The translations under genes were made by a program, and so were the position numbers. From a virus (Duplodnaviria; Heunggongvirae; Uroviricota; Caudoviricetes): a stretch of DNA of 64,000 bases. Position 1 is the first letter of the stretch. Every line of letters starts with the position of its first letter. The notes beneath the pieces were generated by a model, which did not search any database, was not told the DNA's origin, and saw only the letters and a program-made list of their open reading frames with translations. The stretch is taken from the IMG/VR virus record IMGVR_UViG_3300009285_000002. One strand, 5' to 3'. Shown here piece after piece: positions 29,791 to 52,444 of this stretch.

Positions 29791-30450
29791 TTGATAACTA
29801 AACCAACCATAGGTATTCCAGTATCCAATATAGGTGGTGTTATTGGTGTAAATGAAGATCTGGTTAGGTTTACCTCAATATTTGGAAATGTCGCATTCAT
29901 GTCTCCAGATGCTGATAATGCTAAGGTGGACGCCATTCTTCTTCCCGGAGGTGCAGATGTAGATCCATTACGGTACGGACAGGAGCCGAGTTGGTGGACT
30001 GGAAGACCAGATGTGGCCCTGGAATATTTTGACACACAAGTTTTACCAAAATATTTTGGTAAAATCCCAGTTATTGGCGTATGCCGTGGTCTCCAAACGA
30101 TCAATGTTTTATACGGAGGGACATTAAGACAGCATATACACTTTAACCGGCACAGTTCTAATGGTAATGATCTAGTAGACAGCATTAAAGTTATGTATAC
30201 CAATGAAACATTCAGAGTAAACTCTTTTCACCACCAGGGAGTCGGAAACCACGCGATACCAGCTATAGCCACCAACAACAATGGCCTTATAGAAGCCGTT
30301 GAGGACACAACCAACAATGTGTTTGCCGTACAGTGGCACCCAGAGAGGATGTATAATCAGGATTCTGAGTTCTATGATATCTGGACTATTGGAAATATCT
30401 TTAGCCTTCTTGGTATGGAAATTCCACAACAGTACGTTTTGGAAGAATAA
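29791..30450 (+). CDS. class I glutamine amidotransferase-like / gamma-glutamyl hydrolase (peptidase C26, PuuD-like)
   Basis: Catalytic Cys motif PVIGVCRGLQTINVLYGG and His motif FAVQWHPE. Confidence 0.65.
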   Translation: MITKPTIGIPVSNIGGVIGVNEDLVRFTSIFGNVAFMSPDADNAKVDAILLPGGADVDPLRYGQEPSWWTGRPDVALEYFDTQVLPKYFGKIPVIGVCRGLQTINVLYGGTLRQHIHFNRHSSNGNDLVDSIKVMYTNETFRVNSFHHQGVGNHAIPAIATNNNGLIEAVEDTTNNVFAVQWHPERMYNQDSEFYDIWTIGNIFSLLGMEIPQQYVLEE

Positions 30451-30459: not shown

Positions 30460-30666
30460 ATGTATGCTGATTTACTTAATTATGCAGTGGAAAAGAAGGT
30501 ATATGCTATAATCTCTGGTTTAACACAGGAAGGAACTGAGTTGACCCTAGTTAAAAGCAAGAATACGGTGGATGTGTATATCCAAAATGAGGTAATATTC
30601 ACCTCACACATGGTAAAGAATATAATATTCCATGAGCACGGCTGTACTATTACATTAAAGCATTAG
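30460..30666 (+). CDS. hypothetical protein
   Basis: 68 aa with an AAGGAGATAATATG ribosome-binding site. Confidence 0.4.
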   Translation: MYADLLNYAVEKKVYAIISGLTQEGTELTLVKSKNTVDVYIQNEVIFTSHMVKNIIFHEHGCTITLKH

Positions 30667-30675
30667 GGAATAGAT

Positions 30676-30891
30676 ATGACCTATACCCAAGTTATATTAT
30701 TAAGTGCGCTTCTTAATATTGGTATGGTATACATTGTCTACCGTCAATTTATAAGAATACAAGAGTTGGAGAAAACTCTTAGGGGGATAGTTAAACAGGC
30801 GGAAGACGTAATAAGAAAAGCTATGCCAAAAAAACCACCGGCCGCTCCACCAAAGAGTAAGATCCCATGGTATAAATATTATAGAGATTAG
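30676..30891 (+). CDS. small membrane protein
   Basis: 71 aa with one transmembrane segment and a Pro/Lys-rich tail. Confidence 0.4.
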   Translation: MTYTQVILLSALLNIGMVYIVYRQFIRIQELEKTLRGIVKQAEDVIRKAMPKKPPAAPPKSKIPWYKYYRD

Positions 30892-30900
30892 GAGATAAAC

Positions 30901-31080
30901 ATGAAACAAGATGATATGATCAATGCCATGTATACTAAAATGGCTGGGCTACGTTTTTCGGGCGCAGTGGGCCTTATTTGCTGGATAATAGTTCGGCTAC
31001 TATATAGGCTTCTGCAAAAGAAGGTACTTACCGAAGAGGAGGTTCGCTGGATATTACCATAATTGTTATACCAATGCCGT
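30901..31080 (+). CDS. small membrane protein
   Basis: 59-aa ORF not in the supplied track. AGGAGATAAACATG ribosome-binding site. Transmembrane segment GAVGLICWIIVRLLY. Confidence 0.35.
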
Positions 31081-31115
31081 GTAATTTCGTCTAATTCAAT
31101 AAAAGGAGAAAACAA

Positions 31116-31517
31116 ATGGAACAGGCTCTACTGTCGCTCATTAGCCTATTAAAAGCAGCATCACCTGTGGTATGGGAAGCAGCCATACGTCAGGTGCTGG
31201 TGGTAGCATATACTGAATTGTTCTTTGGAATCTTGGTTCTCGTGTCTGCGATCATTTCAGCCACCTGCTTGGTGAAGATGTATAGAGCATACGCAGAGGT
31301 GGAAGCCGCTCATGGCTATGATCTTAAAGAAGCTGTGCGTGCAAAATATGCAGTAGCTCTGCATTGGAAGGATGATATTGGAGAGTTCATGCTATGGGCA
31401 TGGCTTATTGTATTCAGTATCATTGGCATTGTAAACGTGGCTAGTGCTGTTATGCACCTCTCAAATCCAGTATGGTATGCCATTGAGTGGCTGTTATCTG
31501 CAGCCACTGGTGGTTAG
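31116..31517 (+). CDS. membrane protein
   Basis: 133 aa with three predicted transmembrane segments. AAAGGAGAAAACAAATG ribosome-binding site. Confidence 0.45.
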   Translation: MEQALLSLISLLKAASPVVWEAAIRQVLVVAYTELFFGILVLVSAIISATCLVKMYRAYAEVEAAHGYDLKEAVRAKYAVALHWKDDIGEFMLWAWLIVFSIIGIVNVASAVMHLSNPVWYAIEWLLSAATGG

Positions 31518-31570
31518 CCTAATACTGAATTAAACATACAACAAATTCAAACCAAATAAGGAGAATAGTT

Positions 31571-32476
31571 ATGAAACAGAAAACTAATTTTATGCTGGTT
31601 ATTTTGCTCGCAGTCTCGATGGTAATTTCTGGATGCTATTGGAACGATCTTGCGCGGCCAAACCAAATGGCTGTACAACTTGATGAAGGACAGATCAAAA
31701 ATGTGGCGGGGCCCGGTGGCAAGTATACTGATATGTCAATGTGGTCTGATCTTCTTCTTGTAAATGTGGATACTGTAACATTCTCCGTTGAAGATCCGGA
31801 GGTACTGACATCTGATAACCAGGCCGTAGGTGTAAAGATGACAATACAAGCACGGCGAAAATCAGATCGTGCGTCCATTGAAAATATCGTTACTAATTGG
31901 TATTCACTGGTTGACGATACCAAATTAATCGAAACCATTTCCGCCACCGCACGAGAGGGAATGAAAAACGGTGTACGTGGATTTGACCTGGCCCAACTTC
32001 TTAATGACCGTAATGGACTGGGAAACGCCATCAAAGACCAGTTATCACAGGACTCCGAAAAGTATTCTGTGGAGATTATCAATGTTACTGTGGAAAATAT
32101 TGCCCCGTCCGCTGAATACATGAAAATTCTATCTGACAAAGCCAACTTATCCGCTGAAACCGCTAAAGAGCTGGAGCGCCAGAAGCTTATTCAGCAAACT
32201 GCGTCCAATAATATCCTTCAGGCACAAAAAGATGCGGAAGTAAAGGTGGCGCAACTTGAGGCAGAAATGGCCAAGACCGCAGTTGAAGTGGAAATTGCAA
32301 AACGTGAGGGTCAAAAGACCGCCGCGGCCCAGGAAGTATACACCAACAATCCACAAGCGTTTGCACTTGAGCAACTTCGTCTTCTGGATGCCATTTTTGA
32401 CGGGTCTCAGGTGTTCTATCTTCCAGAAGGCACCGATCTCACCGGCATCTTTGGTTTAGATAAGCTGGTTAAGTGA
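31571..32476 (+). CDS. SPFH/band-7 (stomatin/prohibitin-like) domain lipoprotein
   Basis: Signal peptide with lipobox MVISGC. An SPFH-like beta/alpha core is followed by a long Ala/Glu/Lys/Gln-rich coiled coil (QKDAEVKVAQLEAEMAKTAVEVEIAKREGQK). Confidence 0.5.
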   Translation: MKQKTNFMLVILLAVSMVISGCYWNDLARPNQMAVQLDEGQIKNVAGPGGKYTDMSMWSDLLLVNVDTVTFSVEDPEVLTSDNQAVGVKMTIQARRKSDRASIENIVTNWYSLVDDTKLIETISATAREGMKNGVRGFDLAQLLNDRNGLGNAIKDQLSQDSEKYSVEIINVTVENIAPSAEYMKILSDKANLSAETAKELERQKLIQQTASNNILQAQKDAEVKVAQLEAEMAKTAVEVEIAKREGQKTAAAQEVYTNNPQAFALEQLRLLDAIFDGSQVFYLPEGTDLTGIFGLDKLVK

Positions 32477-32667
32477 TGTCCTCACTCATATATTTATTAA
32501 AGGGTGCTGGAATTATGCTCGTGGCGGTACTACTGTCCGGTTTCGCCGTGGCTACCTTACTTTTGTCGGTAAAGTGGGCTCTGTTCCTAATTCGCACCTG
32601 CTGGGACTCGTTGTCAAATGAGTTCACCGCGTTTAATGATTGGGTAAAAACCAAGTTACGCGACTAA
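32473..32667 (+). CDS. small membrane protein
   Basis: 64 aa with a transmembrane segment. ATGA-type overlap with the SPFH gene. Confidence 0.4.
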   Translation: MMSSLIYLLKGAGIMLVAVLLSGFAVATLLLSVKWALFLIRTCWDSLSNEFTAFNDWVKTKLRD

Positions 32668-33033: not shown

Positions 33034-33543
33034 ATGCAATCATATAACAGAAATGATGCTGGTACACCAGAAGAAAAGGTGCTAAGGTATATAGCCACCC
33101 ACGATCACAAGCCGTTAGTGTTTTCCAAACAGACCTATAATGCATTCTCTAGCGCTACCAGAGCCATAACACTTCCAAAAGATGTTACGGATGTTGCCGG
33201 TATGGTAATGTTTACTATTCTTCAAACCAGGGTTAAAAAGTCGCTATATATGGTTTCTAGAGGCGAACAGTGTCGTCCATATGCCAGAAGAAGCTCATTT
33301 GATATTTGGAGGCACATTCGTTACTATAATCCAGATATTGACTTATTTTCTGTTATGCGCTGTATAGCAGGAGTTTATGAAGTAAATATATCATATTGTC
33401 CTACTGTGCATAAGCTGGTTATAATAGCCAATTCGGACGATCCCACACATCTTCGGATTGGAAGAAGCCGTTATAATGAGTATTTTAATATACGAAGCGA
33501 GTATGGCGTAGGAATCAGATATTGGCACACTATTGGAGAATAA
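33034..33543 (+). CDS. hypothetical protein, paralog of 42800-43258
   Basis: Shares SSFDIWRHIRYYNPDIDLFSVM...YCPTV...IGRSRYNEY with the SSLDIWRHAKFVSPDVDILSIM...YCTTV...LGRRSFYCREY stretch of ORF 42800. Confidence 0.45.
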   Translation: MQSYNRNDAGTPEEKVLRYIATHDHKPLVFSKQTYNAFSSATRAITLPKDVTDVAGMVMFTILQTRVKKSLYMVSRGEQCRPYARRSSFDIWRHIRYYNPDIDLFSVMRCIAGVYEVNISYCPTVHKLVIIANSDDPTHLRIGRSRYNEYFNIRSEYGVGIRYWHTIGE

Positions 33544-34668
33544 ATGAGAGACAACCATCCTGGAACAGTGGGAGCGGAGTTTGAATCAGTAATAACAAGT
33601 AGAGACGCGATTTCAGATACCATTAACCGATCTAAGCAGTTACTTCTTGGAATAAGATCCATAACCCGAGATGCTTCAGTGGAGTCTCCAACTGCTCGAA
33701 TAGGTAACTCCACCAGCGTATTCCTTGGTAGTCAACAACTCAGGGGCACCATAAAAAGAACTGGAAATGTAACAGCCGGCTATGAAATAGTGACCAATCC
33801 GATGCCGCTGGGAGATATGCGTAAGGTTATAGCTCAAACAATAAACCTACAGGTTAGAATGGGCGAGATATACTCGCCAAGATCATCTATCCACATTCAT
33901 GTAGGGTTTCCAAATGGCTTGATATTTAGAAAGATTGCCCTGGCACTCGGTAAAGCAGTAGAGCCGATATTCTATAAGATTGCTGGAATGGGTGGAAATT
34001 TTAGGGGTGCCACTAATCATTCCGCGTACTGTAGACCCATAGCCCTACCACCAGCCATAGCGCTGGCAGATTCAGACAAAGTGGCATTGCTTAGGCCAGA
34101 CAAAGCGCTATCTTCCTATGGAGAGAACTCCTTTTGGAACTACATGGGAATAAGCTCAGTAGAGAGAGATAGATATATACCCATAAGATACATGGGTATA
34201 AACATATACTCAACGCTAATGATCGGTACGATGGAATTTAGATTCTTTAACTATAGTTCCGTGTCACGTCATGTGGAGGCCGTAGCCGGACTGTCTCAGT
34301 TTATAACCGACCTTATGATCAGAATTCCGTTGGATGTGGCAATAAGTTGTGCCAGTTTGAGCATCTTCAAGAGTAACTCAGACCAGGATTATATAGATGC
34401 ACTTAGAGAAATGTTGGCCCTTGGAAAACGATATGGGTCTGAGTATACACTGTCGGACGTGGACTATGAGAACATATTGGATTTGATTCGTGCAACTCCG
34501 CAACCAGTATTTGAGGATAAACCGATACTATCACACGTATCTAGGAGTAAGGTAACGTTGGAAATGGCTAGGCAGTATGGTCTGGATATAGTTGACCACG
34601 CAGAGCCCTCTGGATTTATAGATATACATACATTCAACCAGAGTAACCGGTGCTTGATAGGAGATTAA
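33544..34668 (+). CDS. glutamine-synthetase-fold carboxylate-amine ligase (amidoligase-like)
   Basis: N-terminal TVGAEFESV and a later MEFRFF element resemble the GxExE / E..R signatures of GCS2 and phage amidoligase families. TAAATG coupling to the upstream gene. Confidence 0.4.
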   Translation: MRDNHPGTVGAEFESVITSRDAISDTINRSKQLLLGIRSITRDASVESPTARIGNSTSVFLGSQQLRGTIKRTGNVTAGYEIVTNPMPLGDMRKVIAQTINLQVRMGEIYSPRSSIHIHVGFPNGLIFRKIALALGKAVEPIFYKIAGMGGNFRGATNHSAYCRPIALPPAIALADSDKVALLRPDKALSSYGENSFWNYMGISSVERDRYIPIRYMGINIYSTLMIGTMEFRFFNYSSVSRHVEAVAGLSQFITDLMIRIPLDVAISCASLSIFKSNSDQDYIDALREMLALGKRYGSEYTLSDVDYENILDLIRATPQPVFEDKPILSHVSRSKVTLEMARQYGLDIVDHAEPSGFIDIHTFNQSNRCLIGD

Positions 34669-35868
34669 ATGTGTCAATTATTGCTAGTAAACTTAAATAA
34701 AAAAGATCTTAACAGGGTTTTTCTGTCCACACTTCTTCAGGTGGATGCTAACGGGAACCAAGACGGAACAGGATTCTTAGGGCTACGCTCTGATGGACAA
34801 GCATACCTATGGAAAACAGAACTGCCGGCAGATGGTATCTCTAATCTGGGCGCTATTATTGTTGATGGAGTATCATCAAATCTTCCAATAATGGCACACG
34901 TAAGGGCAGCCAGTAGGGGTATAAATGTGAACCCAGAGAATGCACATCCGTTCCACATTAAGCTTAAGAGGTTTTACCTTGCGCATAACGGAAGATTATA
35001 TGGAAATGATGAGTCTCCCTCCTATACCGGTTTTGCGACCGATGATACTAGCATTGGATCCGATTCGCTCAAGTTCCTTACATCATTGGAAGAAGAGTCC
35101 ATTAAATCACCAAATAGTGGTATAGTGGAGTTGCTCAACGCTACCATGAGTAGCTATACAGGTAAGTTTGCGCTTATTATATATGACTCATACTCCAATA
35201 AACACTATGTTGTTAGAGGATCTACCGCTGACTTGCATATGGTCAATATATTTAGCCAAATCGGTGAGGTTCGTAGACAGGTTGGGTATATAGTTAATAC
35301 CAAAAAGAATAGCTTGGAAGACGCGTTAACAATATCCGTACAGATCGGACAAATTGTAACTGGTACAATGATATCGCATGACGACGTTACTGAGCTGGAT
35401 AAGGACAGTGTGTATGAGGTGGAGAAGCTAACCCTTACCAAAATTGGTGAGCTTAAAGAAAAGCCCGTTATATATGCCAGAGCCGTTACACAGGCTTTTA
35501 GCAATACCAGACCACCCAATCAAAGCATACCTGTATGGAGGCTATCCGAGAGGCTCTTGAAATTCATGGATAGCCACTTTCTAACGATACCCGATATGGA
35601 TGCTCTGCTATACCTATTCACCGGCGTTAGAATGGCTGATATATCCGATGATAACCTGGAGTTCTTTGTAGCTACTATAATTCCAAAAATCTCGGCGCCT
35701 AAGAAGATAAGAGATAAGCTAAACTCCATCTTAGGAGATAGTGGCCGTGTTTTCCCAATCGTATACACTCAGGTTAAGCAGCTAGAGTACCCTTGGATTA
35801 TAAGCTCTCCAAAGTCGCAGAACGAACTGTGTGACTACATGGAAGCATTGAAGAAGTCTAGGGCATAA
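34669..35868 (+). CDS. class II (Ntn) glutamine amidotransferase-like, YafJ-type
   Basis: Begins MCQLLLVNLN, with Cys2 directly after Met as in Ntn GATase-II and YafJ proteins (MCELLG). The stop of the upstream gene overlaps the start. Confidence 0.45.
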   Translation: MCQLLLVNLNKKDLNRVFLSTLLQVDANGNQDGTGFLGLRSDGQAYLWKTELPADGISNLGAIIVDGVSSNLPIMAHVRAASRGINVNPENAHPFHIKLKRFYLAHNGRLYGNDESPSYTGFATDDTSIGSDSLKFLTSLEEESIKSPNSGIVELLNATMSSYTGKFALIIYDSYSNKHYVVRGSTADLHMVNIFSQIGEVRRQVGYIVNTKKNSLEDALTISVQIGQIVTGTMISHDDVTELDKDSVYEVEKLTLTKIGELKEKPVIYARAVTQAFSNTRPPNQSIPVWRLSERLLKFMDSHFLTIPDMDALLYLFTGVRMADISDDNLEFFVATIIPKISAPKKIRDKLNSILGDSGRVFPIVYTQVKQLEYPWIISSPKSQNELCDYMEALKKSRA

Positions 35869-36611
35869 TGTTTATTATAACTACCAGAAAGATGCTGCCA
35901 AGCGCAAGGGCTCTAGCTAGAGCTATTGGAGAAAGACTCGGTAGTAGAGTTCACGTCACTGCCAACGAGAACACCAATCTCGCCGGTCCAGTGATAAGGT
36001 GGGGTAACCGCTCCAGAGTAGTAACCGCTCCCGGAATACACAATGGGAACAGCTATAAGTTTATTGACGCCTGCACCAATAAGAGGATATTCTCCGAGTT
36101 GATGAATGCTATGGAAATCCCCTGTGTTGAAATCAGATCTGGAATACCGGAAAGGTTTCCCGTGGTTGTACGAAGAACACTCACTGGATTTGGAGGAGCC
36201 GGGATCAGTGTATGTAAAGATCTGCGGGATTGGAACTTATTTGGTGGCACTTATTGGAGTTACTGGGTAGATTTCCGTCCTGAACTCGGTGTGCATATCT
36301 TCAATGGTAGGATTCTAAAGGCATTCAAAAAAGCTTCATCTGGATATAGCGAAAATACTTCAGAATTTCCTATAAGGAATATGTCCAATGGTTATGATTT
36401 CAAAAGAGTGGACTTGGAGAACTATCCCAAGTTAGTTACATTTATGGAACGGTTTTGTAGTAAGTTTCCTATTTTGTTTGGTAGGCTTGATGTCGGTTGG
36501 GATTACAATGAGAAGACCTACCGTGTAATAGAGTTTAATACGGCCCCCGGTATTGCTACCAACTCTGATACTCTTGAAGCCTATACTAATGCTTTCTTGG
36601 AGGTACTATGA
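35868..36611 (+). CDS. ATP-grasp ligase
   Basis: C-terminal GRLDVGWDYNEKTYRVIEFNTAPGI matches the ATP-grasp D..............E.N..PG signature. TAATG overlap with the upstream gene. Confidence 0.55.
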   Translation: MFIITTRKMLPSARALARAIGERLGSRVHVTANENTNLAGPVIRWGNRSRVVTAPGIHNGNSYKFIDACTNKRIFSELMNAMEIPCVEIRSGIPERFPVVVRRTLTGFGGAGISVCKDLRDWNLFGGTYWSYWVDFRPELGVHIFNGRILKAFKKASSGYSENTSEFPIRNMSNGYDFKRVDLENYPKLVTFMERFCSKFPILFGRLDVGWDYNEKTYRVIEFNTAPGIATNSDTLEAYTNAFLEVL

Positions 36612-36642
36612 TTAAATATACTGGCTAATGCTCTTAATGCTA

Positions 36643-36759
36643 TGAATGAATTTCCCGGCTTCAATCATCCTAAGTACTTCGATGAAATTATTGGATGGAT
36701 AAAGAAATGGGTATCTCCCGAACATAAGTATAATATAGAGAAAAACCTTAGAGGATAAC
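36643..36759 (+). CDS. small protein
   Basis: 38-aa ORF that fills the only gap in the operon. Confidence 0.25.
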
Positions 36760-37533
36760 TTGTATTTCATTGGACAAAGGCATATAATGAACCAGTTGAA
36801 GGATATTCTCCCACACCTATATGAGAATGATGTTGGTATGAACATCCTTATGCGTGGACCAAGTGGTTGGGGCAAAACCAGAATGTCATTTATGATCTGT
36901 AATTATTTGACTGGAGGCAACTTTGAATACTGTCTAGGAGATAAACTTCTATTTACAGATACGGTTAGAGTACACTTTATAGATGAAGTGCATCTATTAG
37001 AGCACCCAGAAACCATCTACCCTAAGATGGATAGTAATAAGTATGTGATTGTTATAGCTACCAACGATGTAGCCACTCTTCCAGAAGCTTTGGTAAATAG
37101 ATGTGTGGAGTTTATCTTCTCTGAATATTCTATTCCAGAACTTAGAGAGATAGCTAGAGGTTGCACTAATGTAAGTATGTCCAATGATTTCCTGGATTAT
37201 ATAATAGAAAGCGGTGGCGGTAATCCTAGAATTATAAAGAGTCTTCTAGGTAGATTGAATATTATTCTATCTAGGAATCCTCTTATTCTAAAGGGACTGG
37301 ATCTTAACCAGTTCAAAGAATTACTGCACGAAGTATTTGGAATCAAGGACGGTATGGATGTTATGTGCCAGAGGTATATGGAAGCCCTTCATCTATTGGG
37401 AGGTACTGCCGCTATTACAACCATAGCAAGTTACATACATATTGACCAGAATACGGTCAAGTTCTTTATCGAGCCTATTCTTCTCTATAAGAATAGGATT
37501 AGAATAACCAGTAGAGGAAGGAGTCTAATTTGA
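36760..37533 (+). CDS. AAA+ ATPase (RuvB-like or clamp-loader-like)
   Basis: Walker A MRGPSGWGKTRMSF and Walker B VHFIDEVHLLE (compare RuvB FIDEIHRL). Sensor-1-like VIATN. Confidence 0.5.
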   Translation: MYFIGQRHIMNQLKDILPHLYENDVGMNILMRGPSGWGKTRMSFMICNYLTGGNFEYCLGDKLLFTDTVRVHFIDEVHLLEHPETIYPKMDSNKYVIVIATNDVATLPEALVNRCVEFIFSEYSIPELREIARGCTNVSMSNDFLDYIIESGGGNPRIIKSLLGRLNIILSRNPLILKGLDLNQFKELLHEVFGIKDGMDVMCQRYMEALHLLGGTAAITTIASYIHIDQNTVKFFIEPILLYKNRIRITSRGRSLI

Positions 37534-38552
37534 CAACTGTTATAATTAGTAGCGTGGTACCAAGTATTCTACAAATAGTATCGCCAGTGCATGACACCGT
37601 TATACAAAGGGCGCACGGGCTTAGGTTCTACTTCAAAGGCGGTGGTGATCTGGTGGCGTTGCAACGTGGGTCAGAGAGGGTATACACGGTGCATATCCCA
37701 ATTTTCTCTGATGTAGTAGCTGCCACCATCTCTTCACTTGTAGCAGAATTGGCTGAAGACATCGCCAAGGAAATTGAAGTCAAGAAGATAGGCAATGTAG
37801 AGTGGTTTCTATTTGATACCAAAACTAAAAAAATCCTGTGCAAAGATAGCTTCATGGATTTTATCCCATACCACAGTATTAGAAAAGCGCTGTTTGTGGT
37901 TGAGAATGAGGATGGGACCAACGAAAAGTATTTTAGGTATATGCCGGACTCGAGTAACTATGCCTTAATACAACTTATGTGTACTATAGTGGCCAAAAGG
38001 GAGCTTATGCTGCCCATCTCTGAGGTAGCCTCTGATTGGAGCCTTACTGGAAAACAGCTACTGTCATATCTTGTATCAGAGCGGTTTTATATGAAGGTGG
38101 ACTTCTCCTCCATTTACGGATGCTGGGATGCAATGAAGTTAGTCTTTAATAAGAACAGAAAATACCCAATTCCCGTAAACTTGGATACAATGAATGTTGA
38201 CCGGGCAAAAAAACTTGCTGTGGACGCTCACTATGGTGACGTGGATGACGACTATCCAGATTTCTCCTCACCACCGCCTAGCATCGGCAATGTAAAAACA
38301 TTGCTGTCCGATGTTCTGCTAATTGGAGTTGATGCATTTTGTAAAAATAGCACGGGGTATATAGATGTAGAGATTGACTGGATGCGCGAGACATTCAAGT
38401 CAGTAACAATAGATTGCGTGTCTGGAATATGCTTCGTAGAACTAAACAGGGGAATAGAGATATCTTTGGAACAACTAAAAGATGATCTACAAGCGGATAA
38501 TCTACAGATCTTAAGTGATCTGACCGATATCATACCAACGGGAGACCAATGA
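37530..38552 (+). CDS. hypothetical protein
   Basis: 340 aa with a TTG start that overlaps the upstream stop (TTTGA). Confidence 0.4.
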   Translation: MTTVIISSVVPSILQIVSPVHDTVIQRAHGLRFYFKGGGDLVALQRGSERVYTVHIPIFSDVVAATISSLVAELAEDIAKEIEVKKIGNVEWFLFDTKTKKILCKDSFMDFIPYHSIRKALFVVENEDGTNEKYFRYMPDSSNYALIQLMCTIVAKRELMLPISEVASDWSLTGKQLLSYLVSERFYMKVDFSSIYGCWDAMKLVFNKNRKYPIPVNLDTMNVDRAKKLAVDAHYGDVDDDYPDFSSPPPSIGNVKTLLSDVLLIGVDAFCKNSTGYIDVEIDWMRETFKSVTIDCVSGICFVELNRGIEISLEQLKDDLQADNLQILSDLTDIIPTGDQ

Positions 38553-39004
38553 GCACAACCTTCTTGTCCCATCTACGTCACGGATGTGGTGGTAACGTAG
38601 TTATAGACGCGTCTACGTCCGTAAAGTTATATGCGCCAAGTTTTAGGATCTCACAGGATGGCATAGGCGATCTTATGCTGGATGTGAATATCGCGTCAGG
38701 GGGGGATCTTGTACCATCCTACTGGTGTTTGAAGTGTGGGGAGACAATATCTCCCGATGACCTGTGGGAAGCCCTGTCAGCGTTATGCCAAGTATGTGGG
38801 TATAGCCACCAGATTTCAGATCTCAACGTTCACTCACAGATAGCCACCATATGCAACGAATGCCTAAATTCCATTAAAACGGTGTGCAATGGCGGACACT
38901 CTACAAATGAGCGTATAGCTCTATATATTGATATGTACTCTTTGACAAAGAGTATTAGAGTTGTACCACTGCTTAAAGTACTAAAAAACACAATAAAACT
39001 ATAG
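38549..39004 (+). CDS. zinc-ribbon protein
   Basis: ATGA overlap with the upstream gene. Four Cys pairs: CLKCG, CQVCG, CNEC and CNGGH. Confidence 0.4.
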   Translation: MSTTFLSHLRHGCGGNVVIDASTSVKLYAPSFRISQDGIGDLMLDVNIASGGDLVPSYWCLKCGETISPDDLWEALSALCQVCGYSHQISDLNVHSQIATICNECLNSIKTVCNGGHSTNERIALYIDMYSLTKSIRVVPLLKVLKNTIKL

Positions 39005-39017
39005 AGGAGAAAACATA

Positions 39018-39902
39018 ATGGACAAGAAAACTTTGAAATTTGGATCAGACCCAGAATTTGCAGCCGCCTACCGAGATGATAATGGTGAACTGTTTATCCT
39101 TCCACCAGTGATCTTGAGGAATGATTTTGGAGCACCATTTGAAGATAATGGGCGTCACCCAATTTTCAAGCGATACGGAGACACCGTTGTTCATGAGGAT
39201 GGGGCCGCTTTTGAAATGTCTACTCCGCCTACGTCAGATTGGCGGTCTATGTGGAAAACTTTGCATGATACTCGTGAAGCATTTGGAAAAGATGTGCTGG
39301 AACAGTATAGCGTATGCGATCCACGCCTTTACTCCTTACCTGCGATGCGCTTCCAGGTAGATAGGTGGCTTGGCAGAGGTGAGGAATTTAAGATGGCCAC
39401 GCTGTTCGGATGTGACGCGGATGAAGACGTATTTAATACCAGAGTTCCGTGCAGAACTATGGATGCATCTAAGCACCCATGGCGGTACATGGGTGGACAC
39501 ATACACGCATCCGGTATCAGAGATATTGAGGAACGTCCATTGATGGCTGTAAGAAGTATGGTTCTTACTGCCGGACTTGCTTCCACAGCATATTCGGATG
39601 TTCCTGAATTGGAAAAGGAACGTATATTCTTATACGGGAAACCTGGAAAGTTCCGTATTCAGCACTACACGAATGGAGAGGTTGGTATTGAGTACCGTAC
39701 TCCGTCCACTCGATGGACAGAAAGTATCGAGCTTGCTGAGAAGATCTTTACCTGGGCAGAAATCGGACTTACTTCACTTTTGCAAGGCGGCTTGCTGGAC
39801 AGCATTGCCAAAATTGTGGAGAAAGAGGCACGTTCCGCTATTACCACTGTTAACCAGAAGAAGGCTATTGAGATTTTGGATTTCATCGCTACCAAGGTGT
39901 AA
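39018..39902 (+). CDS. hypothetical enzyme, possible second amidoligase-like protein
   Basis: 294 aa with a GAGGAGAAAACATAATG ribosome-binding site. KFGSDPEF near the N-terminus and IEYRTPST later echo the G.E.E / E.R pattern of ORF 33544. Confidence 0.3.
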   Translation: MDKKTLKFGSDPEFAAAYRDDNGELFILPPVILRNDFGAPFEDNGRHPIFKRYGDTVVHEDGAAFEMSTPPTSDWRSMWKTLHDTREAFGKDVLEQYSVCDPRLYSLPAMRFQVDRWLGRGEEFKMATLFGCDADEDVFNTRVPCRTMDASKHPWRYMGGHIHASGIRDIEERPLMAVRSMVLTAGLASTAYSDVPELEKERIFLYGKPGKFRIQHYTNGEVGIEYRTPSTRWTESIELAEKIFTWAEIGLTSLLQGGLLDSIAKIVEKEARSAITTVNQKKAIEILDFIATKV

Positions 39903-39942
39903 ATTGCTATAGGCATAACATTCATACCATAAGGAGAAACAA

Positions 39943-40830
39943 ATGAAAGTAGTATGCGCAACCTCAGATTTGGCCCAACCATTCTATAAGTGGTTTGACG
40001 ATATTGCAGTGCTTGGCCATGAAGATCGGGTCACTGATGATATTGACCTGCTGATCCTAACAGGTGGCTCAGATGTATCCCCATCTCGTTATAACAGCCT
40101 ACCGGGCGGTTCTTACGGAATTGATCTGGAAAGGGACGAGAGGGAGTTTAATATTGTTGGAAAGGTTATGAGCCTAAATCCCAGAGTAAAGATCTTGGCT
40201 GTTTGCCGTGGATTGCAGCTTCTTAACGTATTATTTGGAGGAAATCTTATACAAGATTTATCCAACGCTGGTATAGGACACAGTGGAGTACATACTATAG
40301 ACTGGCTCAGTGAACACCCGCTATCTTGGTTAACCACAGTAAACTCTATGCACCATCAGGCCGTCAGCAGGATAGATGGAGATAACAGATTCCCACCATA
40401 CATTCTGGCCATAGAGCCAAATACCAGGGTTCCGGAAGTTGTATCATGGGGAAATGCGTTCTTGGGCGTACAATTTCATCCAGAGTTCTTCTCTGAAGCG
40501 ATTGGAGAGCGCTTCTTTGCAGTTGTAAAAAACTGGGTTGATGGGCTGGTGTCATTGGGCTACCCTGTCACTGCAGAAGACCTAGATGGACGTCCATCCA
40601 TAACATGGAGTAATGATACGGATTATGAGGAAGACTCTTTCGACGATGATGAGGACGAAGAACTGGAGGAAGAACTGCTTGAAAATGTGCCTAGTACAGC
40701 TCCTTCTATTAATTTGGTGGTCAATAGAGAGATGACTAACCGGATACTATATTCATTTAATAGTCTTACGGCGGCTACTAATGGCACAGACCTGAATTAC
40801 ACAGACAGTAACGATAATGGAGGTAGCTAA
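39943..40830 (+). CDS. class I glutamine amidotransferase-like / C26 peptidase with poly-acidic C-terminal tail
   Basis: Cys motif KILAVCRGLQLLNVLFGG and His motif FLGVQFHPEF. The C-terminus carries EEDSFDDDEDEELEEELLE. Confidence 0.6.
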   Translation: MKVVCATSDLAQPFYKWFDDIAVLGHEDRVTDDIDLLILTGGSDVSPSRYNSLPGGSYGIDLERDEREFNIVGKVMSLNPRVKILAVCRGLQLLNVLFGGNLIQDLSNAGIGHSGVHTIDWLSEHPLSWLTTVNSMHHQAVSRIDGDNRFPPYILAIEPNTRVPEVVSWGNAFLGVQFHPEFFSEAIGERFFAVVKNWVDGLVSLGYPVTAEDLDGRPSITWSNDTDYEEDSFDDDEDEELEEELLENVPSTAPSINLVVNREMTNRILYSFNSLTAATNGTDLNYTDSNDNGGS

Positions 40831-41439: not shown

Positions 41440-41745
41440 ATGGGAATATCTGTAGTTAGAGTTTGTGGTGGTGTGGCCGAGGTGGTGTTCCAATCCCCGG
41501 ATGTTGAAACGCATATTTTTGATATGGATGGGGATGTATGTAACTATCTGTATAAAGATAAGTATGTATGCCAGATAGTTACAGTTAACGATGATGGAAC
41601 TTTGGATCTTAAATGTGTGGATACCACCGACGGAAGTAGACACAACCGTTCCTTCTTGGGAGTTCCAGTTGATGATGTCGAGTTCTTCTCATCTTTGGAG
41701 GACTCAGACTATGCTGATGATCTGGATGAACAGGAAGGCGCATAA
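41440..41745 (+). CDS. small acidic protein
   Basis: 101 aa with a C-terminus rich in D and E (SLEDSDYADDLDEQEGA). Confidence 0.4.
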   Translation: MGISVVRVCGGVAEVVFQSPDVETHIFDMDGDVCNYLYKDKYVCQIVTVNDDGTLDLKCVDTTDGSRHNRSFLGVPVDDVEFFSSLEDSDYADDLDEQEGA

Positions 41746-42799: not shown

Positions 42800-43258
42800 A
42801 TGTCAAGAATAATGGAAAGACGAAAAAAGATTGAAACCTATATTGGTCTATATGAGCGATCCCCGCTAAGCTTCCTTAGATATGCTGTTGGTGAAGGGGT
42901 AGCAGTGCCAATGGAATCAGATGGATCGGATTTAGATGTTTTGGTTATGGAGATATTGGAAAAAGCAATGGTTTGCATGTCCTATAATGGAGTTCGCATT
43001 GAAACTATGTCAGGAAGAATGCGAAGTTCATTAGATATCTGGAGGCATGCCAAATTTGTGTCTCCAGATGTTGACATTCTCTCAATCATGGAATCTATAC
43101 ATAGACTACGTGATCGTATTTATGGACATTACTGTACAACCGTAAAGAGATCAGTGTTCAGACTCCCGAACAACTATGGAATCGCACTTGGTAGGAGGAG
43201 CTTTTACTGCCGGGAGTATAGAATTAGGTTTAGCACCTGGGGTAAACTGCATGAGTAA
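42800..43258 (+). CDS. hypothetical protein, paralog of 33034-33543
   Basis: Shares the conserved core SLDIWRHAKFVSPDVDILSIM with ORF 33034. Confidence 0.45.
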   Translation: MSRIMERRKKIETYIGLYERSPLSFLRYAVGEGVAVPMESDGSDLDVLVMEILEKAMVCMSYNGVRIETMSGRMRSSLDIWRHAKFVSPDVDILSIMESIHRLRDRIYGHYCTTVKRSVFRLPNNYGIALGRRSFYCREYRIRFSTWGKLHE

Positions 43259-44548: not shown

Positions 44549-44577
44549 AGCCCCGCAAATCGCGGGGCTATTTTTTT
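44549..44577. terminator. bidirectional rho-independent terminator at the convergent junction
   Basis: AGCCCCGC, an AAATC loop, GCGGGGCT, then ATTTTTTT. It sits between the last plus-strand gene and the first minus-strand gene. Confidence 0.8.
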
Positions 44578-50631: not shown

Positions 50632-50705
50632 GCCGTCGTAGCTTATGTGGAAAAGCGGGAATTTTGTAAATTCCAGACAGTGGGTTCGACTCCTCACCGA
50701 TGGCT
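50632..50705 (+). tRNA. tRNA-Thr(TGT)
   Basis: Hand-folded: acceptor GCCGTCG/CGATGGC, D stem GCTT/AAGC, anticodon stem GGAAT/ATTCC with loop TTTGTAA, and T loop GGTTCGACTCC. No encoded CCA. Confidence 0.55.
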
Positions 50706-50709
50706 CTAT

Positions 50710-50782
50710 TATCCCGTAGTTCAGATGGAAGAACGCTTGTCTTTGAAACAAGAGGTCGGATGTTCAAATCATTCCGGGATAG
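50710..50782 (+). tRNA. tRNA-Gln(TTG)
   Basis: Acceptor TATCCCG/CGGGATA, D stem GTTC/GAAC, anticodon stem CTTGT/ACAAG with loop CTTTGAA, and T loop TTCAAAT. Confidence 0.55.
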
Positions 50783-50787
50783 CTAAT

Positions 50788-50859
50788 GCTCTTATCTTAT
50801 AGTGGCTAATAAACTAGACCCTCAATCTAGTAACTTGGGTTCAATTCCCAATAAGAGCA
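50788..50859 (+). tRNA. tRNA, anticodon uncertain (loop CCCTCAA, read as CTC/Glu)
   Basis: Acceptor GCTCTTA/TAAGAGC, D stem TTAT/ATAA, anticodon stem CTAGA/TCTAG, and T loop GGGTTCAATTCCC. Position 33 is C. Confidence 0.4.
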
Positions 50860-51118
50860 CAGAGGTAAATATGATTACTAAAATACTAAATGGAGTTATC
50901 TGGTATGATTACAAAGGTGATGAAATCTGTTGGAATGGGGGGGGGGTATATATCCCTTCTTTGTGAGGGGGAGTTTGACTCTCTGGAAGAAATGGATCAA
51001 TTTTGGGAAGACTATGGTAACAGTTTTCGTAGACAGGAAATATAGGTAACTAAAGATATGGCTATGGATGCTGGAGACTTATTCCTTGAAGGACAAATCT
51101 GGCAGTGGTAGCACAAAT

Positions 51119-51191
51119 GCTCTCTTGGTCTATTGGCTAAGACGCCTCCCTTTCAAGGAGGAAACAGCAGGTTCGATTCCTGTAGAGAGCG
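51119..51191 (+). tRNA. tRNA-Glu(TTC)
   Basis: Acceptor GCTCTCT/AGAGAGC, anticodon stem CCTCC/GGAGG with loop CTTTCAA, and T loop GGTTCGATTCC. Confidence 0.55.
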
Positions 51192-51257
51192 CTAGTAGGT
51201 TCTGTGTCAAGGGAGATACGGACGTAAGATAGGCAAACACTCCTCTGCCTACAATAT

Positions 51258-51330
51258 GTTGGATATGGTATATCGGAATTATGTCTACCTGTGAAGTAGA
51301 AGAGCTGGGTTCAACTCCCAGTATCCAACC
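51258..51330 (+). tRNA. tRNA-His(GTG)
   Basis: Acceptor GTTGGAT/ATCCAAC, anticodon stem TCTAC/GTAGA with loop CTGTGAA, and T arm CTGGGTTCAACTCCCAG. The D arm is weak. Confidence 0.45.
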
Positions 51331-51341
51331 ATATAAAATAT

Positions 51342-51413
51342 TGTCCTATAGCTCAATGGTGACCCTTCGCTCTGTTAAAGCGAAGGTTCGTGGTTCAAGT
51401 CCACGTAGGACAG
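51342..51413 (+). tRNA. tRNA-Asn(GTT)
   Basis: Acceptor TGTCCTA/TAGGACA, anticodon stem TCGCT/AGCGA with loop CTGTTAA, and T arm CGTGGTTCAAGTCCACG. Confidence 0.5.
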
Positions 51414-51537
51414 CTAAATCCAGTGGCATGTGGTTGTAAAGATGATATTACAAGCGGCCATGCTAAAAAATAAAAGAGCCGTACATACTCGGCACTGGAT
51501 TTTATTACCCCATAGCTCAACTGGAAGAATATAAACT

Positions 51538-52047
51538 ATGAGAAGAAGAACAAATCCATTATATAATATAGATAAGCAAACTCTATTAGACGCTGTGATA
51601 AATAGCAAGTCAATAGCAGAAGTCCTAGATAGATTGAATGTACCTAGATTTATTGGTAGTAGCTATGAAATATTTAGAAACCTATGCAAAACTTATGACC
51701 TTACTGATGAATTCAGAAAGCTAAAAGATAGAAGTAAGGAAACAATAAAGAAGCAGGTAAGTCATGTCGGAATAAAATACTCGCTAGATTATATATTAGT
51801 AGAAAACAGTACTTACAAGAGTAGAACTGAGCTAAAGAAAAGGCTGGTGAATTGTGGTATGCTAGTTAATAGGTGTAATATATGTAGTTGTGATCCAATA
51901 TGGAATGGAAAGAACTTAGTATTTATACTTGACCATATAAATGGGATTCATAACGATAACAGATTTGAAAACCTACAACTGGTGTGTCCAAACTGCAACA
52001 GTCAACTTAGTACATTTTCTGGAAGGAACAAAAAATACAAGCATTGA
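51538..52047 (+). CDS. HNH homing endonuclease
   Basis: C-terminal CNICSC...ILDHINGIHNDNRFENLQLVCPNCN HNH/Zn motif. The gene sits inside the tRNA array and its stop codon overlaps the 5' end of the next tRNA. Confidence 0.6.
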   Translation: MRRRTNPLYNIDKQTLLDAVINSKSIAEVLDRLNVPRFIGSSYEIFRNLCKTYDLTDEFRKLKDRSKETIKKQVSHVGIKYSLDYILVENSTYKSRTELKKRLVNCGMLVNRCNICSCDPIWNGKNLVFILDHINGIHNDNRFENLQLVCPNCNSQLSTFSGRNKKYKH

Positions 52048-52115
52048 CATATAGTATAATGGTAGTACAAAGGACTCTGAATCCTTTAGTAGTTGTTCAA
52101 ATCAACTTATGTCAG
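52045..52115 (+). tRNA. tRNA-Gln(CTG)
   Basis: Acceptor TGACATA/TATGTCA, D stem GTAT/GTAC, anticodon stem AAGGA/TCCTT with loop CTCTGAA, and T arm AGTTGTTCAAATCAACT. Confidence 0.5.
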
Positions 52116-52151
52116 CAAGGTTTGAGGTTCGAGACCTCAGAGGGTAGCTAT

Positions 52152-52237
52152 GGAAGATTGACGTAATGGTATCGTAGAGGGTTGCTAACCCTTCCTGCAT
52201 ATAATGTGCAGTACAGGTTCGAGTCCTGTATCTTCCG
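52152..52237 (+). tRNA. tRNA-Ser(GCT), type II
   Basis: Acceptor GGAAGAT/ATCTTCC, anticodon stem GAGGG/CCCTT with loop TTGCTAA, long variable arm CTGCA..TGCAG, and T arm ACAGGTTCGAGTCCTGT. Confidence 0.5.
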
Positions 52238-52320
52238 CCTAGTTAGTAAAAGTGTTGGTAGCTGACCTGACAGATACACGCCCTATGATATGACCATACG
52301 GACATAGGCAACTAACTTAT

Positions 52321-52404: not shown

Positions 52405-52444
52405 CTGTGCAATATAAATCATACAGTAAAAAAGGAGAAATGAT

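What the first reader, a model, noticed from the sequence alone, without database searches (positions are those of the whole stretch)
33034..40830. Translationally coupled operon of amidoligase-like, class-II GATase, ATP-grasp, AAA+ and two class-I GATase/C26 proteins
Genes at 33544, 34669, 35868, 37530 and 38549 overlap by TAAATG, TAATG, ATGA or TTTGA junctions, so they are co-translated. The set comprises:
- a GS-fold ligase-like protein (GAEFE...MEFRFF)
- a protein starting MCQLL, the Ntn class-II amidotransferase hallmark
- an ATP-grasp with the ...VIEFNTAPG signature
- a RuvB-like AAA+ ATPase
- a second putative amidoligase
- a C26 gamma-glutamyl hydrolase with a poly-acidic tail, plus a second copy at 29791

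This is the enzyme repertoire expected for making and trimming a gamma-glutamyl or peptide-type amide linkage on a metabolite, protein or nucleotide. It is my best candidate for an uncharacterised biochemical system in this window. The target is unknown.
Basis: partly seen in the sequence, partly recalled or inferred. Interest (0 to 1): 0.8.

Follow-up and report, generated by a model that had tools for sequence, protein, structure and literature searches.

The report
Phage amide-ligase module with RuvB-like motor
An uncultivated groundwater phage carries a divergent, enlarged copy of an already described but never tested phage gene set for making and trimming glutamyl or peptide-type amide bonds, here always interleaved with a stripped-down RuvB-type ATPase and two proteins of unknown function.

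Summary
Window 33544-40830 encodes, on the + strand:
- two glutamine-synthetase-fold ligases (Amidoligase_2; phiEco32-type COOH-NH2 ligase)
- a Cys1 class-II amidotransferase
- an ATP-grasp ligase
- a RuvB-family AAA+ ATPase
- a Peptidase_C26 enzyme, with a second copy at 29791-30450

All catalytic motifs are intact. This is not a new kind of system. The five enzyme types form a recurrent phage module (phiEco32/LUZ24-like, Zobellviridae, Rhizobium and Alcaligenes phages) that was described computationally in 2009. I found no experimental work on it.

What is new is the architecture. In 16 related metagenomic loci, the RuvB-like ATPase lies among genes of the ligase/amidotransferase set wherever the contig extends beyond it. 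It lacks the RuvA-binding hairpin. A 340-aa acidic protein follows it in 14 of those loci. That protein models confidently (pLDDT 89) yet has no fold or sequence relatives. A CxxC zinc-ribbon protein was detected in nine of the loci. The gamma-glutamyl cyclotransferase of the known modules is absent.

The likely chemistry is ATP-dependent ligation, followed by glutamine-dependent amidation or gamma-glutamyl removal. The target is unknown. About 84 kb of the genome shows no thymidine-hypermodification genes.

Verdict: new variant of a known kind, moderate interest.

The parts
29791..30450 (+). Class-I glutamine amidotransferase / Peptidase_C26, copy a (219 aa). Cys98 lies in VCRGLQ; His183-Glu185 lie in WHPE.
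   Evidence: Pfam Peptidase_C26 at 2.1e-30 and GATase at 4e-13. NCBIfam top hits, all below cut-off, are gamma-glutamyl-CDP-amidate hydrolase and PuuD. In relative L007 a homologue sits inside the block. Motif positions.
33034..33543 (+). Basic 169-aa protein of unknown function, paralogous to 42800-43258.
   Evidence: No Pfam, PHROG or NCBIfam hit. phmmer to 42800-43258 gives 6e-12. Homologues flank the block in L008 and lie upstream of it in L005; none were found in L006, L007 or L011. pI 9.4.
33544..34668 (+). Glutamine-synthetase-fold carboxylate-amine ligase, Amidoligase_2 type (374 aa).
   Evidence: Pfam PF12224 at E 8e-4, 19.8 bits, below the cut-off of 22. Thirty metagenomic homologues at 37-55% identity, several with a precomputed PF12224 hit. 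hhalign to the amidoligases of three cultured or annotated phages gives 96.3%, E 1.9e-9. Invariant E12, E14, E47, E81, H119, R215, E231, R233 across 23 sequences.
34669..35868 (+). Stand-alone Ntn class-II glutamine amidotransferase or gamma-glutamyl amidohydrolase (399 aa). The Ntn domain spans about residues 1-200; the C-terminal ~200 aa have no match.
   Evidence: GATase_6 at 28.9 bits (cut-off 27) and GATase_4 at 25.2 bits (cut-off 23). Motifs: MCQLL, HVRAAS, NAHPF, HNG, GSDS. The best PDB and NCBIfam relative is EgtC, weakly. hhalign to phage GATase-II N-domains gives 98.8%, E 5e-17; the C-domain is unmatched.
35868..36611 (+). ATP-grasp carboxylate-amine ligase, RimK/GshB-like (247 aa).
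   Evidence: PHROG 2599 at 6e-16. The lineage HMM hits annotated ATP-grasp genes of three phages at 8e-21 to 4e-14. tblastn finds 83 phage records. The weak PDB hits are all ATP-grasp enzymes. No Pfam hit. Motifs GFGGAGI, ELGVHIF, RLDVGWD, IEFNTAPG.
36612..36759 (+). Spacer of 148 nt holding a small ORF (about 38 aa, ...NALNAMNEFPGF...).
   Evidence: The in-frame translation shares NALNAM[NH]EF with the end of an 83-aa ORF at the same place in L007. In L005-L007 this position holds one to three small variable ORFs; in L008 and L011 it holds none.
36760..37533 (+). Minimal RuvB-family AAA+ ATPase with a C-terminal RuvB-type winged helix (257 aa, TTG start). Walker A is 33-40, Walker B 73-78, sensor 1 at 99-103, Arg finger R114, sensor 2 R157. 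The presensor-1 beta-hairpin is deleted.
   Evidence: Pfam RuvB_C at 5.8e-10, AAA, RuvB_N. NCBIfam RuvB at 4e-18. All 13 PDB hits are RuvB, the best being 3pfi at 1.6e-10. It is the most conserved protein of the block, with 82% mean column identity. The TTG start is supported by an xYF[IV]GQ N-terminus in 7 loci.
37530..38552 (+). Acidic 340-aa protein of unknown fold ('u340'). Its start overlaps the end of the RuvB-like gene by 4-20 nt in six of the seven longer loci.
38549..39004 (+). Zinc-ribbon protein (151 aa) with CxxC pairs at 60/63, 80/83 and 102/105, plus C13.
   Evidence: Invariant Cys and His in 4 loci. No significant PDB or family hit. A homologue is present in the distant locus L022 (hhalign 81%, E 1.2e-5). 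No homologue was detected in L009.
39018..39902 (+). Glutamine-synthetase-fold carboxylate-amine ligase, phiEco32-type 'COOH-NH2 ligase type 2' (294 aa).
   Evidence: Pfam PF14395 at 1.9e-4, 21.2 bits, below the cut-off of 25. PHROG 3815 at 1.1e-17. tblastn finds 54 phage records, mostly LUZ24/PaP3-like. The lineage HMM hits known phages at 5e-17 to 6e-8. Invariant D11, E13, H59, E60, D61, E66, H161, H163, R213, E225, R227.
39943..40830 (+). Class-I glutamine amidotransferase / Peptidase_C26, copy b (295 aa). Cys88 lies in VCRGLQ; His179-Glu181 lie in FHPE. The C-terminal ~100 aa form a low-complexity acidic tail.
   Evidence: Pfam Peptidase_C26 at 3.7e-23. PDB 3fij at 4e-13 and 7d4r at 4e-8. 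The tail is acidic in the window, L005, L006 and L008; it is present but not acidic in L007; it is absent in L009 and L011.

Best explanation
The block 33544-40830, plus the extra C26 gene at 29791, is a phage-encoded enzyme module for ATP-dependent amide-bond formation, followed by glutamine-dependent amidation or gamma-glutamyl removal. It is a divergent member of the module carried by phiEco32/LUZ24-like, Zobellviridae-like and other podophages.

**Shown by sequence**
- Three ligases have intact active-site residues: two glutamine-synthetase-fold ligases and one ATP-grasp.
- Three thiol enzymes have an intact nucleophile: one Ntn class-II and two class-I/C26.

**Inferred mechanism**
- Each ligase activates a carboxylate as an acyl-phosphate and joins it to an amine.
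- Three successive ligations would build a short glutamyl or peptide-type adduct on an acceptor.
- The class-II and C26 enzymes do one of two things. They may hydrolyse glutamine to feed ammonia to a ligase, turning a carboxylate into a carboxamide. Or they may strip a gamma-glutamyl group used as a temporary protecting or activating handle, as in the EgtA/EgtC and PuuA/PuuD pairs.
- The closest characterised relatives of the hydrolases (EgtC, PuuD/SpuA, gamma-glutamyl-CDP-amidate hydrolase) all act on small molecules. The immediate substrate is therefore most likely a low-molecular-weight amine or carboxylate, or an exposed peptide stem such as a cell-wall precursor.

**Specific to this phage lineage**
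- A minimal RuvB-family hexameric-motor ATPase without the RuvA-binding hairpin is inherited inside the block.
- A tightly coupled acidic 340-aa protein of unknown fold and a zinc-ribbon protein accompany it in most loci.
- I take the 340-aa protein to be the motor's adaptor.
- Whether this trio works with the ligases is not settled.
For: **Family assignments and motifs:**

**Same five enzyme types in independent phages:**
- UFV-P2 and LUZ24-like phages (PMC3890496).
- Alcaligenes QDWS535, Zobellviridae T5S1 and Rhizobium RHph_I3_11.
- Lineage HMMs and profile-profile comparison hit the matching gene in each: GATase-II 3e-14 (hhalign 98.8%), ATP-grasp 8e-21, COOH-NH2 ligase 5e-17, C26 6e-19, amidoligase hhalign 96%.

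**Block conserved in relatives:**
- Four metagenomic relatives of the amidoligase (46-54% identity): L005, L006, L007 and L008.
- L011, where the 340-aa protein is only about 20% identical, keeps the same order.
- L009, where the ATP-grasp has moved to the front.
- In all nine further JGI contigs the RuvB-like gene is flanked by module genes as far as the contig reaches.
- In the distant L022 (RuvB-like 34% identical) the order is amidoligase, GATase-II, RuvB-like, three unknown ORFs, then a homologue of the zinc-ribbon protein.

**Literature:** PMC10580990 reports the prior prediction of Iyer et al. 2009 for phiEco32.
Against: - Both GS-fold ligases score below Pfam's curated cut-offs in the window protein itself. 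Neither has a solved relative detectable by sequence.
- There is no experimental evidence for any member of this module in the library searched.
- All 8-gene loci come from one viral lineage whose flanking genes are also collinear. Synteny therefore cannot cleanly separate functional linkage from shared descent.
- The gamma-glutamyl cyclotransferase and the ~190-aa conserved protein of the known modules are missing.
- The small-molecule preference is inferred from weak, sub-threshold similarities.
Confidence: 0.7

Rival explanations
1. Two unrelated units are interleaved. One is an ordinary phiEco32/LUZ24-type amidoligase module. The other is an independent DNA recombination or replication trio (RuvB-like motor, its adaptor and a zinc-ribbon protein) that merely sits between the ATP-grasp gene and the second ligase gene in this lineage.
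For: - The ATPase is specifically RuvB-like.
- The phage also encodes RecA, DnaB, a primase and a family-A polymerase.
- The trio has no counterpart in the known modules.
- Gene order downstream of the block is conserved too, so collinearity is general in this lineage.
- A 148-nt spacer, or variable small ORFs, separate the ATP-grasp gene from the ATPase gene.
Against: - The ATPase stays inside the ligase set in every locus that reaches beyond it. This includes a rearranged locus (L009) and a distant one (L022), where it overlaps the end of the GATase-II gene.
- The hairpin that binds RuvA is deleted, and no RuvA or RuvC was seen.
- The partner protein is acidic, which is unlike a junction-binding protein.
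Confidence: 0.3
2. It is a protein-tagging system. The ligases add glutamate or a short peptide to a phage or host protein, as RimK does on ribosomal protein S6 or PafA does with Pup. The thiol hydrolases act as erasers. The AAA+ ATPase recognises or remodels the tagged protein.
For: - The ATP-grasp falls in the PHROG annotated as RimK-like.
- GS-fold ligases combined with an AAA+ ATPase recall the Pup system (established knowledge).
- Acidic disordered tails recur on module or neighbouring proteins: C26b, the 101-aa protein at 41440-41745, and the amidoligase in L022.
Against: - The ATPase is RuvB-type, not Mpa/Cdc48-type.
- No conserved small protein ends in GGQ/GGE, and the tails are not conserved at their C-termini.
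- The class-II enzyme keeps the residues that bind a free alpha-amino and alpha-carboxylate. The closest relatives of both hydrolase types act on small molecules.
Confidence: 0.15
3. It is a DNA or nucleotide hypermodification pathway. The ligases attach an amino-acid-derived group to a base, and the RuvB-like motor moves the enzymes along DNA.
For: - Amidoligase and amidotransferase genes were seen next to thymidine-hypermodification genes in viral contigs (PMC8989533).
- A RuvB-family DNA translocase and a zinc ribbon sit inside the block.
- In the known podophages the module sits beside primase/helicase genes.
Against: - No thymidylate-synthase-like hydroxymethylase, TET/JBP dioxygenase, 5-hmdU kinase or aGPT-Pplase appears in the window or in the 10 kb on either side. 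That is about 84 kb of an 89-kb genome.
- The only DNA-modifying genes seen are ordinary methyltransferases.
- The 340-aa partner is acidic.
Confidence: 0.1

Closest known systems
phiEco32/LUZ24-type phage amidoligase module. Members are a COOH-NH2 ligase type 2, Amidoligase_2, a class-II amidotransferase, an ATP-grasp, often C26, and a gamma-glutamyl cyclotransferase. It was described in silico by Iyer, Abhiman, Burroughs and Aravind, Mol Biosyst 2009 (not held; known to me through citing papers and the Pfam name).
   Same: The same five enzyme families occur, each detectably homologous to the corresponding gene in the Alcaligenes, Zobellviridae and Rhizobium phages. The local order amidoligase, GATase-II, ATP-grasp is the same. 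The module is co-directional and tightly packed.
   Different: - Sequences are very divergent: no DNA match, and no tblastn match for the amidoligase among 50,697 phage records.
- There is no gamma-glutamyl cyclotransferase, and no ~190-aa protein between the two GS-fold ligases.
- The GATase-II C-terminal domain is unrelated or unrecognisable.
- Three extra genes are interleaved in most loci: the RuvB-like ATPase, the 340-aa protein and the zinc-ribbon protein.
- The host genome is an ~89-kb tailed phage rich in tRNAs, not a 45-70-kb podophage.
Gamma-glutamyl 'add then remove' enzyme pairs of small-molecule metabolism: EgtA/EgtC (ergothioneine) and PuuA/PuuD or PauA/SpuA (polyamine catabolism).
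   Same: A GS-fold or related ligase is paired with an Ntn class-II or C26 thiol hydrolase. The window's class-II enzyme is closest to EgtC, and its C26 enzymes are closest to PuuD/SpuA-type hydrolases.
   Different: All similarities fall far below the equivalog cut-offs. There are three ligases and three hydrolases instead of one of each. None of the other pathway enzymes is present.
RuvB, the Holliday-junction branch-migration motor.
   Same: It has the AAA+ core, lid and RuvB-type winged helix, with Walker A/B, sensor 1, Arg finger and sensor 2 present.
   Different: It is about 80 residues shorter. The N-terminal segment before FIGQ is missing, and the presensor-1 beta-hairpin that binds RuvA is replaced by three residues (read from the alignment). 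No RuvA or RuvC was found. Its partner is an acidic protein of unknown fold.

Membership tests
phiEco32/LUZ24-type phage amidoligase module | phiEco32-type COOH-NH2 ligase type 2 (PF14395) | tested here: met
   39018-39902: PF14395 at 1.9e-4 (21.2 bits, below the cut-off of 25). PHROG 3815 at 1.1e-17. The lineage HMM hits the annotated ligases of three phages at 5e-17 to 6e-8.
phiEco32/LUZ24-type phage amidoligase module | Amidoligase_2 (PF12224) GS-fold ligase | tested here: met
   33544-34668: 19.8 bits against a cut-off of 22. Homologues carry PF12224. hhalign to known phage amidoligases gives 96.3%, E 1.9e-9.
phiEco32/LUZ24-type phage amidoligase module | Stand-alone class-II (Ntn, Cys1) glutamine amidotransferase | tested here: met
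   34669-35868: GATase_6 and GATase_4 above cut-off; MCQLL at the N-terminus; hhalign 98.8%.
phiEco32/LUZ24-type phage amidoligase module | ATP-grasp ligase | tested here: met
   35868-36611: PHROG 2599 at 6e-16; the HMM hits known phage ATP-grasp genes at 8e-21.
phiEco32/LUZ24-type phage amidoligase module | Gamma-glutamyl cyclotransferase (AIG2/GGCT) gene after the ATP-grasp gene | tested here: not met
   No GGCT hit in any ORF from 28.6 to 44.5 kb by Pfam or PHROGs. hhalign of lineage proteins against the Zobellviridae GGCT is negative.
phiEco32/LUZ24-type phage amidoligase module | Conserved ~190-aa protein between the two GS-fold ligases | tested here: not met
   hhalign of every unassigned lineage protein against this protein from three phages gives probability below 1%.
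Peptidase_C26 / class-I glutamine amidotransferase | Cys-His-Glu triad in the conserved motifs | tested here: met
   VCRGLQ and [WF]HPE are present in both copies. Pfam E-values are 2e-30 and 4e-23.
RuvB | AAA+ motifs plus the RuvB C-terminal winged helix | tested here: met
RuvB | Presensor-1 beta-hairpin and a RuvA partner | tested here: not met
   Between Walker B and sensor 1 the window protein has ...KMDSNKYVIVIATN. RuvB has a ~20-residue hairpin at this position (alignment). No RuvA-like family was found in the window survey.
Thymidine hypermodification clusters (Lee et al., PMC8989533) | A 5-hmdU source (dUMP hydroxymethylase or TET/JBP), 5-HMUDK and aGPT-Pplase | tested here: not met
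   None was found in the window or in the 10-kb extensions on both sides.
Pup-proteasome-like tagging | A small disordered tag ending in GGQ/GGE and an Mpa-type AAA+ ATPase | tested here: not met
   The ATPase is RuvB-type. C-termini of the acidic tails are not conserved: S, V, E, E and E in five loci.

The most novel reading that the evidence does not exclude
The RuvB-type motor, the 340-aa protein of unknown fold and the zinc-ribbon protein are working subunits of the ligase machinery. The block would then be an ATP-driven system that delivers glutamyl or peptide-type amide conjugation to a macromolecule. The target could be phage or host DNA, or a DNA-bound or unfolded protein. That would be a previously unknown type of phage-directed macromolecular modification.
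Probability: 0.2. Interest if true: 0.85.

Novelty: new variant of a known kind. Interest (0 to 1): 0.5.

Why it matters
The phage amidoligase/amidotransferase/ATP-grasp module is widespread. It occurs in Pseudomonas LUZ24-like therapy phages, marine Zobellviridae and OM43 phages. It has had only a computational prediction since 2009, and nobody knows its product or target.

This lineage shows that the same enzymes can be kept for a long evolutionary time together with a RuvB-family motor and a confidently folded protein that has no known relatives. That gives a new clue about the target, possibly a macromolecule. It also gives a compact eight-gene set for heterologous expression.

If the trio proves unrelated to the ligases, the finding reduces to a very divergent copy of a known module plus an unusual minimal phage RuvB.

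Tried and rejected
- **DNA searches.** Megablast and blastn of the block against 50,697 phage records found no match, and tblastn of the amidoligase found none either. The lineage has no cultured relative; its polymerase is only 26% identical to the nearest.
- **Pattern scans for relatives.**
  - A scan of IMG/VR with the single amidoligase found nothing.
  - A scan of GTDB genomes with the RuvB-like profile found nothing.
  - A scan of IMG/VR with the L022 ATPase found nothing.
- **Word-index protein search.** A second search with a 7-sequence profile of the 340-aa protein added only one sequence.
- **PDB sequence searches.** Searches with profiles of both GS-fold ligases found nothing credible.
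- **The 169-aa protein at 33034.** I tested it as the counterpart of the conserved ~190-aa protein of known modules. The result was negative.
- **The zinc-ribbon protein.** I tested it as a split-off copy of the Cys-rich C-terminus of the known phages' GATase-II. hhalign gave only 13%, so this remains a lead.
- **Promoter and terminator scan.** Counts did not exceed shuffled controls, so no operon boundaries could be set.
- **AFDB Foldseek library.** It was unavailable.
- **Iyer et al. 2009.** The paper is not held.

Full report
**What the window is.** It is a stretch of an uncultivated tailed phage from a groundwater metagenome (ENA ERZ909576/SRR2177968). The longest contig carrying the same genes is 89 kb. 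The layout is:
- tail and structural genes at 0-20 kb;
- a long + strand block of early or accessory genes at about 22-44.5 kb;
- a short minus-strand block with a primase and a deoxynucleotidase;
- an array of 20 tRNA genes at 50.6-58.2 kb;
- a family-A DNA polymerase and RecA.

Neither the DNA nor the amidoligase protein matches anything among 50,697 deposited phage records. The polymerase is only about 26% identical to its nearest deposited relatives.

**The observation.** The junction strings are correct:
- 33543/33544 and 34668/34669 are TAAATG (abutting);
- 35868 is TAATG;
- 37530 is a TTG start inside TTTGA;
- 38549 is ATGA.

There is also a 148-nt spacer before the AAA+ gene, and 13-nt and 40-nt spacers before the last two genes. 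Six of ten junctions in the block are <=0 nt, against 11 of 41 elsewhere on the + strand. The same packing continues for 2.4 kb downstream. The only convincing terminator is a bidirectional hairpin at 44549-44569, where the + and - blocks converge. 'Translationally coupled' is therefore plausible, but it does not mark out this gene set.

**The enzymes.**
- Profile searches confirm each guess.
- Both glutamine-synthetase-fold ligases score slightly below Pfam's curated cut-offs in the window proteins.
  - The amidoligase has 30 metagenomic homologues, several of which pass PF12224. It aligns with the amidoligases of three annotated phages at 96% hhalign probability.
  - The second ligase hits PHROG 3815 at 1e-17 and matches 54 phage records, mostly LUZ24/PaP3-like.
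- The ATP-grasp has no Pfam hit but is clear from PHROG 2599 and from 83 phage matches.
- Residues invariant across the family alignments fit active enzymes. They include Glu/His/Arg sets in both GS-fold ligases and the ExN Mg site of the ATP-grasp.
- The class-II enzyme keeps Cys2, Arg79, Asn107-Gly108 and Asp132. Both C26 proteins keep the Cys-His-Glu triad.
- The closest characterised relatives, all well below equivalog thresholds, are EgtC for the class-II enzyme and PuuD/SpuA-type or gamma-glutamyl-CDP-amidate hydrolases for the C26 enzymes.

**It is a known kind of module.** The same combination lies in one co-directional cluster in several phages:
- LUZ24-like phages (UFV-P2 ORFs 21-29, PMC3890496);
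- Alcaligenes phage QDWS535, a Zobellviridae phage and Rhizobium phage RHph_I3_11.

The combination is a COOH-NH2 ligase type 2, Amidoligase_2, a class-II amidotransferase and an ATP-grasp, often with a C26 enzyme and a gamma-glutamyl cyclotransferase. HMMs built from the window lineage hit the corresponding gene in each of the latter three phages. The module goes back to Iyer et al. 2009, which I could not read. PMC10580990 cites it as suggesting cell-wall modification and superinfection exclusion in phiEco32. Pfam names PF14395 after phiEco32. Seven literature searches found no experimental characterisation. The nearest item is a report that directed evolution of a Pseudomonas phage selected missense changes in its amidoligase and amidotransferase genes (PMC11450229).

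**What differs here.** Three genes with no counterpart in the known modules lie between the ATP-grasp gene and the second ligase gene.

1. *A 257-aa RuvB-family ATPase.*
   - All 13 PDB hits are RuvB, and the NCBIfam RuvB hit is 4e-18.
   - It has all the AAA+ motifs and the RuvB winged helix.
   - It lacks the N-terminal segment and the presensor-1 hairpin that binds RuvA (alignment).
   - It is the most conserved protein of the block.
2. *A 340-aa acidic protein.*
   - Its start overlaps the ATPase stop in six of the seven longer loci.
   - Its family has only 55 representatives among 1.84 billion proteins.
   - With 45 sequences AlphaFold gives pLDDT 89.4.
   - No Cys, His or Lys is conserved.
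3. *A 151-aa protein with three CxxC pairs*.

**Conservation of the expanded block.**
- The order amidoligase, GATase-II, ATP-grasp, RuvB-like, 340-aa protein, zinc ribbon, COOH-NH2 ligase, C26 recurs in L005, L006, L007, L008 and L011, sometimes with small extra ORFs inserted. In L011 the 340-aa protein is only about 20% identical.
- L009 has the ATP-grasp moved to the front and no detectable zinc-ribbon homologue. The ATPase and the 340-aa protein still sit between GATase-II and the second ligase.
- In nine more JGI contigs the ATPase is flanked by module genes as far as each contig reaches.
- In the most distant contig, L022 (ATPase 34% identical), the order is amidoligase, GATase-II, ATPase, three unknown ORFs, then a homologue of the zinc-ribbon protein at hhalign 81%.

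This argues that the ATPase belongs with the ligases. It is not proof: all loci belong to one viral lineage, and its downstream genes are collinear too.

**The target.** I looked for evidence of DNA hypermodification, because amidoligase and amidotransferase genes have been seen beside thymidine-hypermodification genes (PMC8989533). I surveyed the window and the 10 kb on either side, about 84 kb in total. I found no thymidylate-synthase-like hydroxymethylase, TET/JBP dioxygenase, 5-hmdU kinase or aGPT-Pplase. I found only ordinary methyltransferases.

For protein tagging there is only circumstantial support: a RimK-like ATP-grasp and recurrent acidic tails. The tails are not conserved at their ends, and the ATPase is not of the unfoldase type.

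The nearest characterised relatives of all three thiol enzymes act on small gamma-glutamyl compounds. My best reading is a multi-step ligation that builds a glutamyl or peptide-type adduct on a small molecule or an exposed peptide stem. The thiol enzymes would either supply ammonia or remove a gamma-glutamyl handle. The role of the RuvB-like trio remains open.

**Verdict.** The system is a new architectural variant of a known, computationally described and experimentally untested phage module. It is not a new kind of system. Interest is moderate. It would rise sharply if the RuvB-like motor and the 340-aa protein with no detectable fold relatives were shown to work with the ligases.

Noticed in passing
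window 33034-33543 and 42800-43258; L008 5952-6437 and 16312-16836; L005 8947-9453: Two basic (pI ~9.4) paralogous proteins with no family hit bracket the module in the window and in L008. They share a DIWRH...PD[IV]D motif. They are absent from L006, L007 and L011.
   Followed up: partly
window 36612-36759: The 148-nt 'gap' before the RuvB-like gene holds a ~38-aa ORF. Its sequence (NALNAMNEF...) matches the end of an 83-aa ORF at the same position in L007. It also contains HPKYFDEIIG, which resembles the RPKxxDEFIGQ N-terminal motif of RuvB. This may be a remnant of the ATPase's lost N-terminus.
   Followed up: partly
window 41440-41745; 39943-40830 tail; L022 170-1792 tail: Strongly acidic disordered C-terminal tails recur on different proteins in and next to the module. 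The 101-aa protein has one in three loci, C26b has one in four loci, and the amidoligase has one in L022. They could be substrates, DNA mimics or docking tails.
   Followed up: partly
L005 18489-19343, L006 17973-18827, L007 18696-19583, L008 14038-14865, L011 9744-10592: A 275-295-aa protein with no family hit directly follows the C26 gene in five relatives. It is missing from the window, where C26b instead carries a longer tail.
   Followed up: no
L002 5403-6815 (minus strand), L003 2930-4465, L004 1970-3118: The class-II amidotransferases of the known phage modules are longer (382-511 aa) and end in Cys-rich segments with CxxC pairs. The separate zinc-ribbon protein of the window lineage may be their split-off equivalent, but hhalign gives only 13%.
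   Followed up: partly
window 25312-28378, 50632-58164, 57152-57925: The phage has an RNA-repair and translation set. It comprises an RNA ligase, a TROVE-like DUF2828/DUF7788 protein (PHROG 850, 2e-126), an RlaP nucleotidyltransferase, and 20 tRNA genes including a tRNA-Ile(TAT).
   Followed up: no
window 30460-32667: Between the first C26 gene and the module lie an SPFH/Band_7 protein (31571-32476) and several small hydrophobic ORFs. A Band_7 gene is also upstream of the module in L006.
   Followed up: no
window 44549-44569: A perfect bidirectional intrinsic-terminator hairpin (9-bp stem, 7 GC pairs, T-runs on both strands) marks the convergence of the + and - strand gene blocks.
   Followed up: no
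P0034 (homologue of 37530-38552): One homologue of the 340-aa protein is deposited in NCBI nr as a hypothetical protein of Pseudoxanthomonas sp., on a 2.4-kb contig. This is the only hint about the host.
   Followed up: no
L013 3086-4960 and 14852-15310, compared with the window: Another contig of the same phage population carries LAGLIDADG homing-endonuclease genes upstream of the window's start. It also carries a DUF559/Vsr-like endonuclease among the structural genes, which suggests mobile-endonuclease traffic.
   Followed up: no
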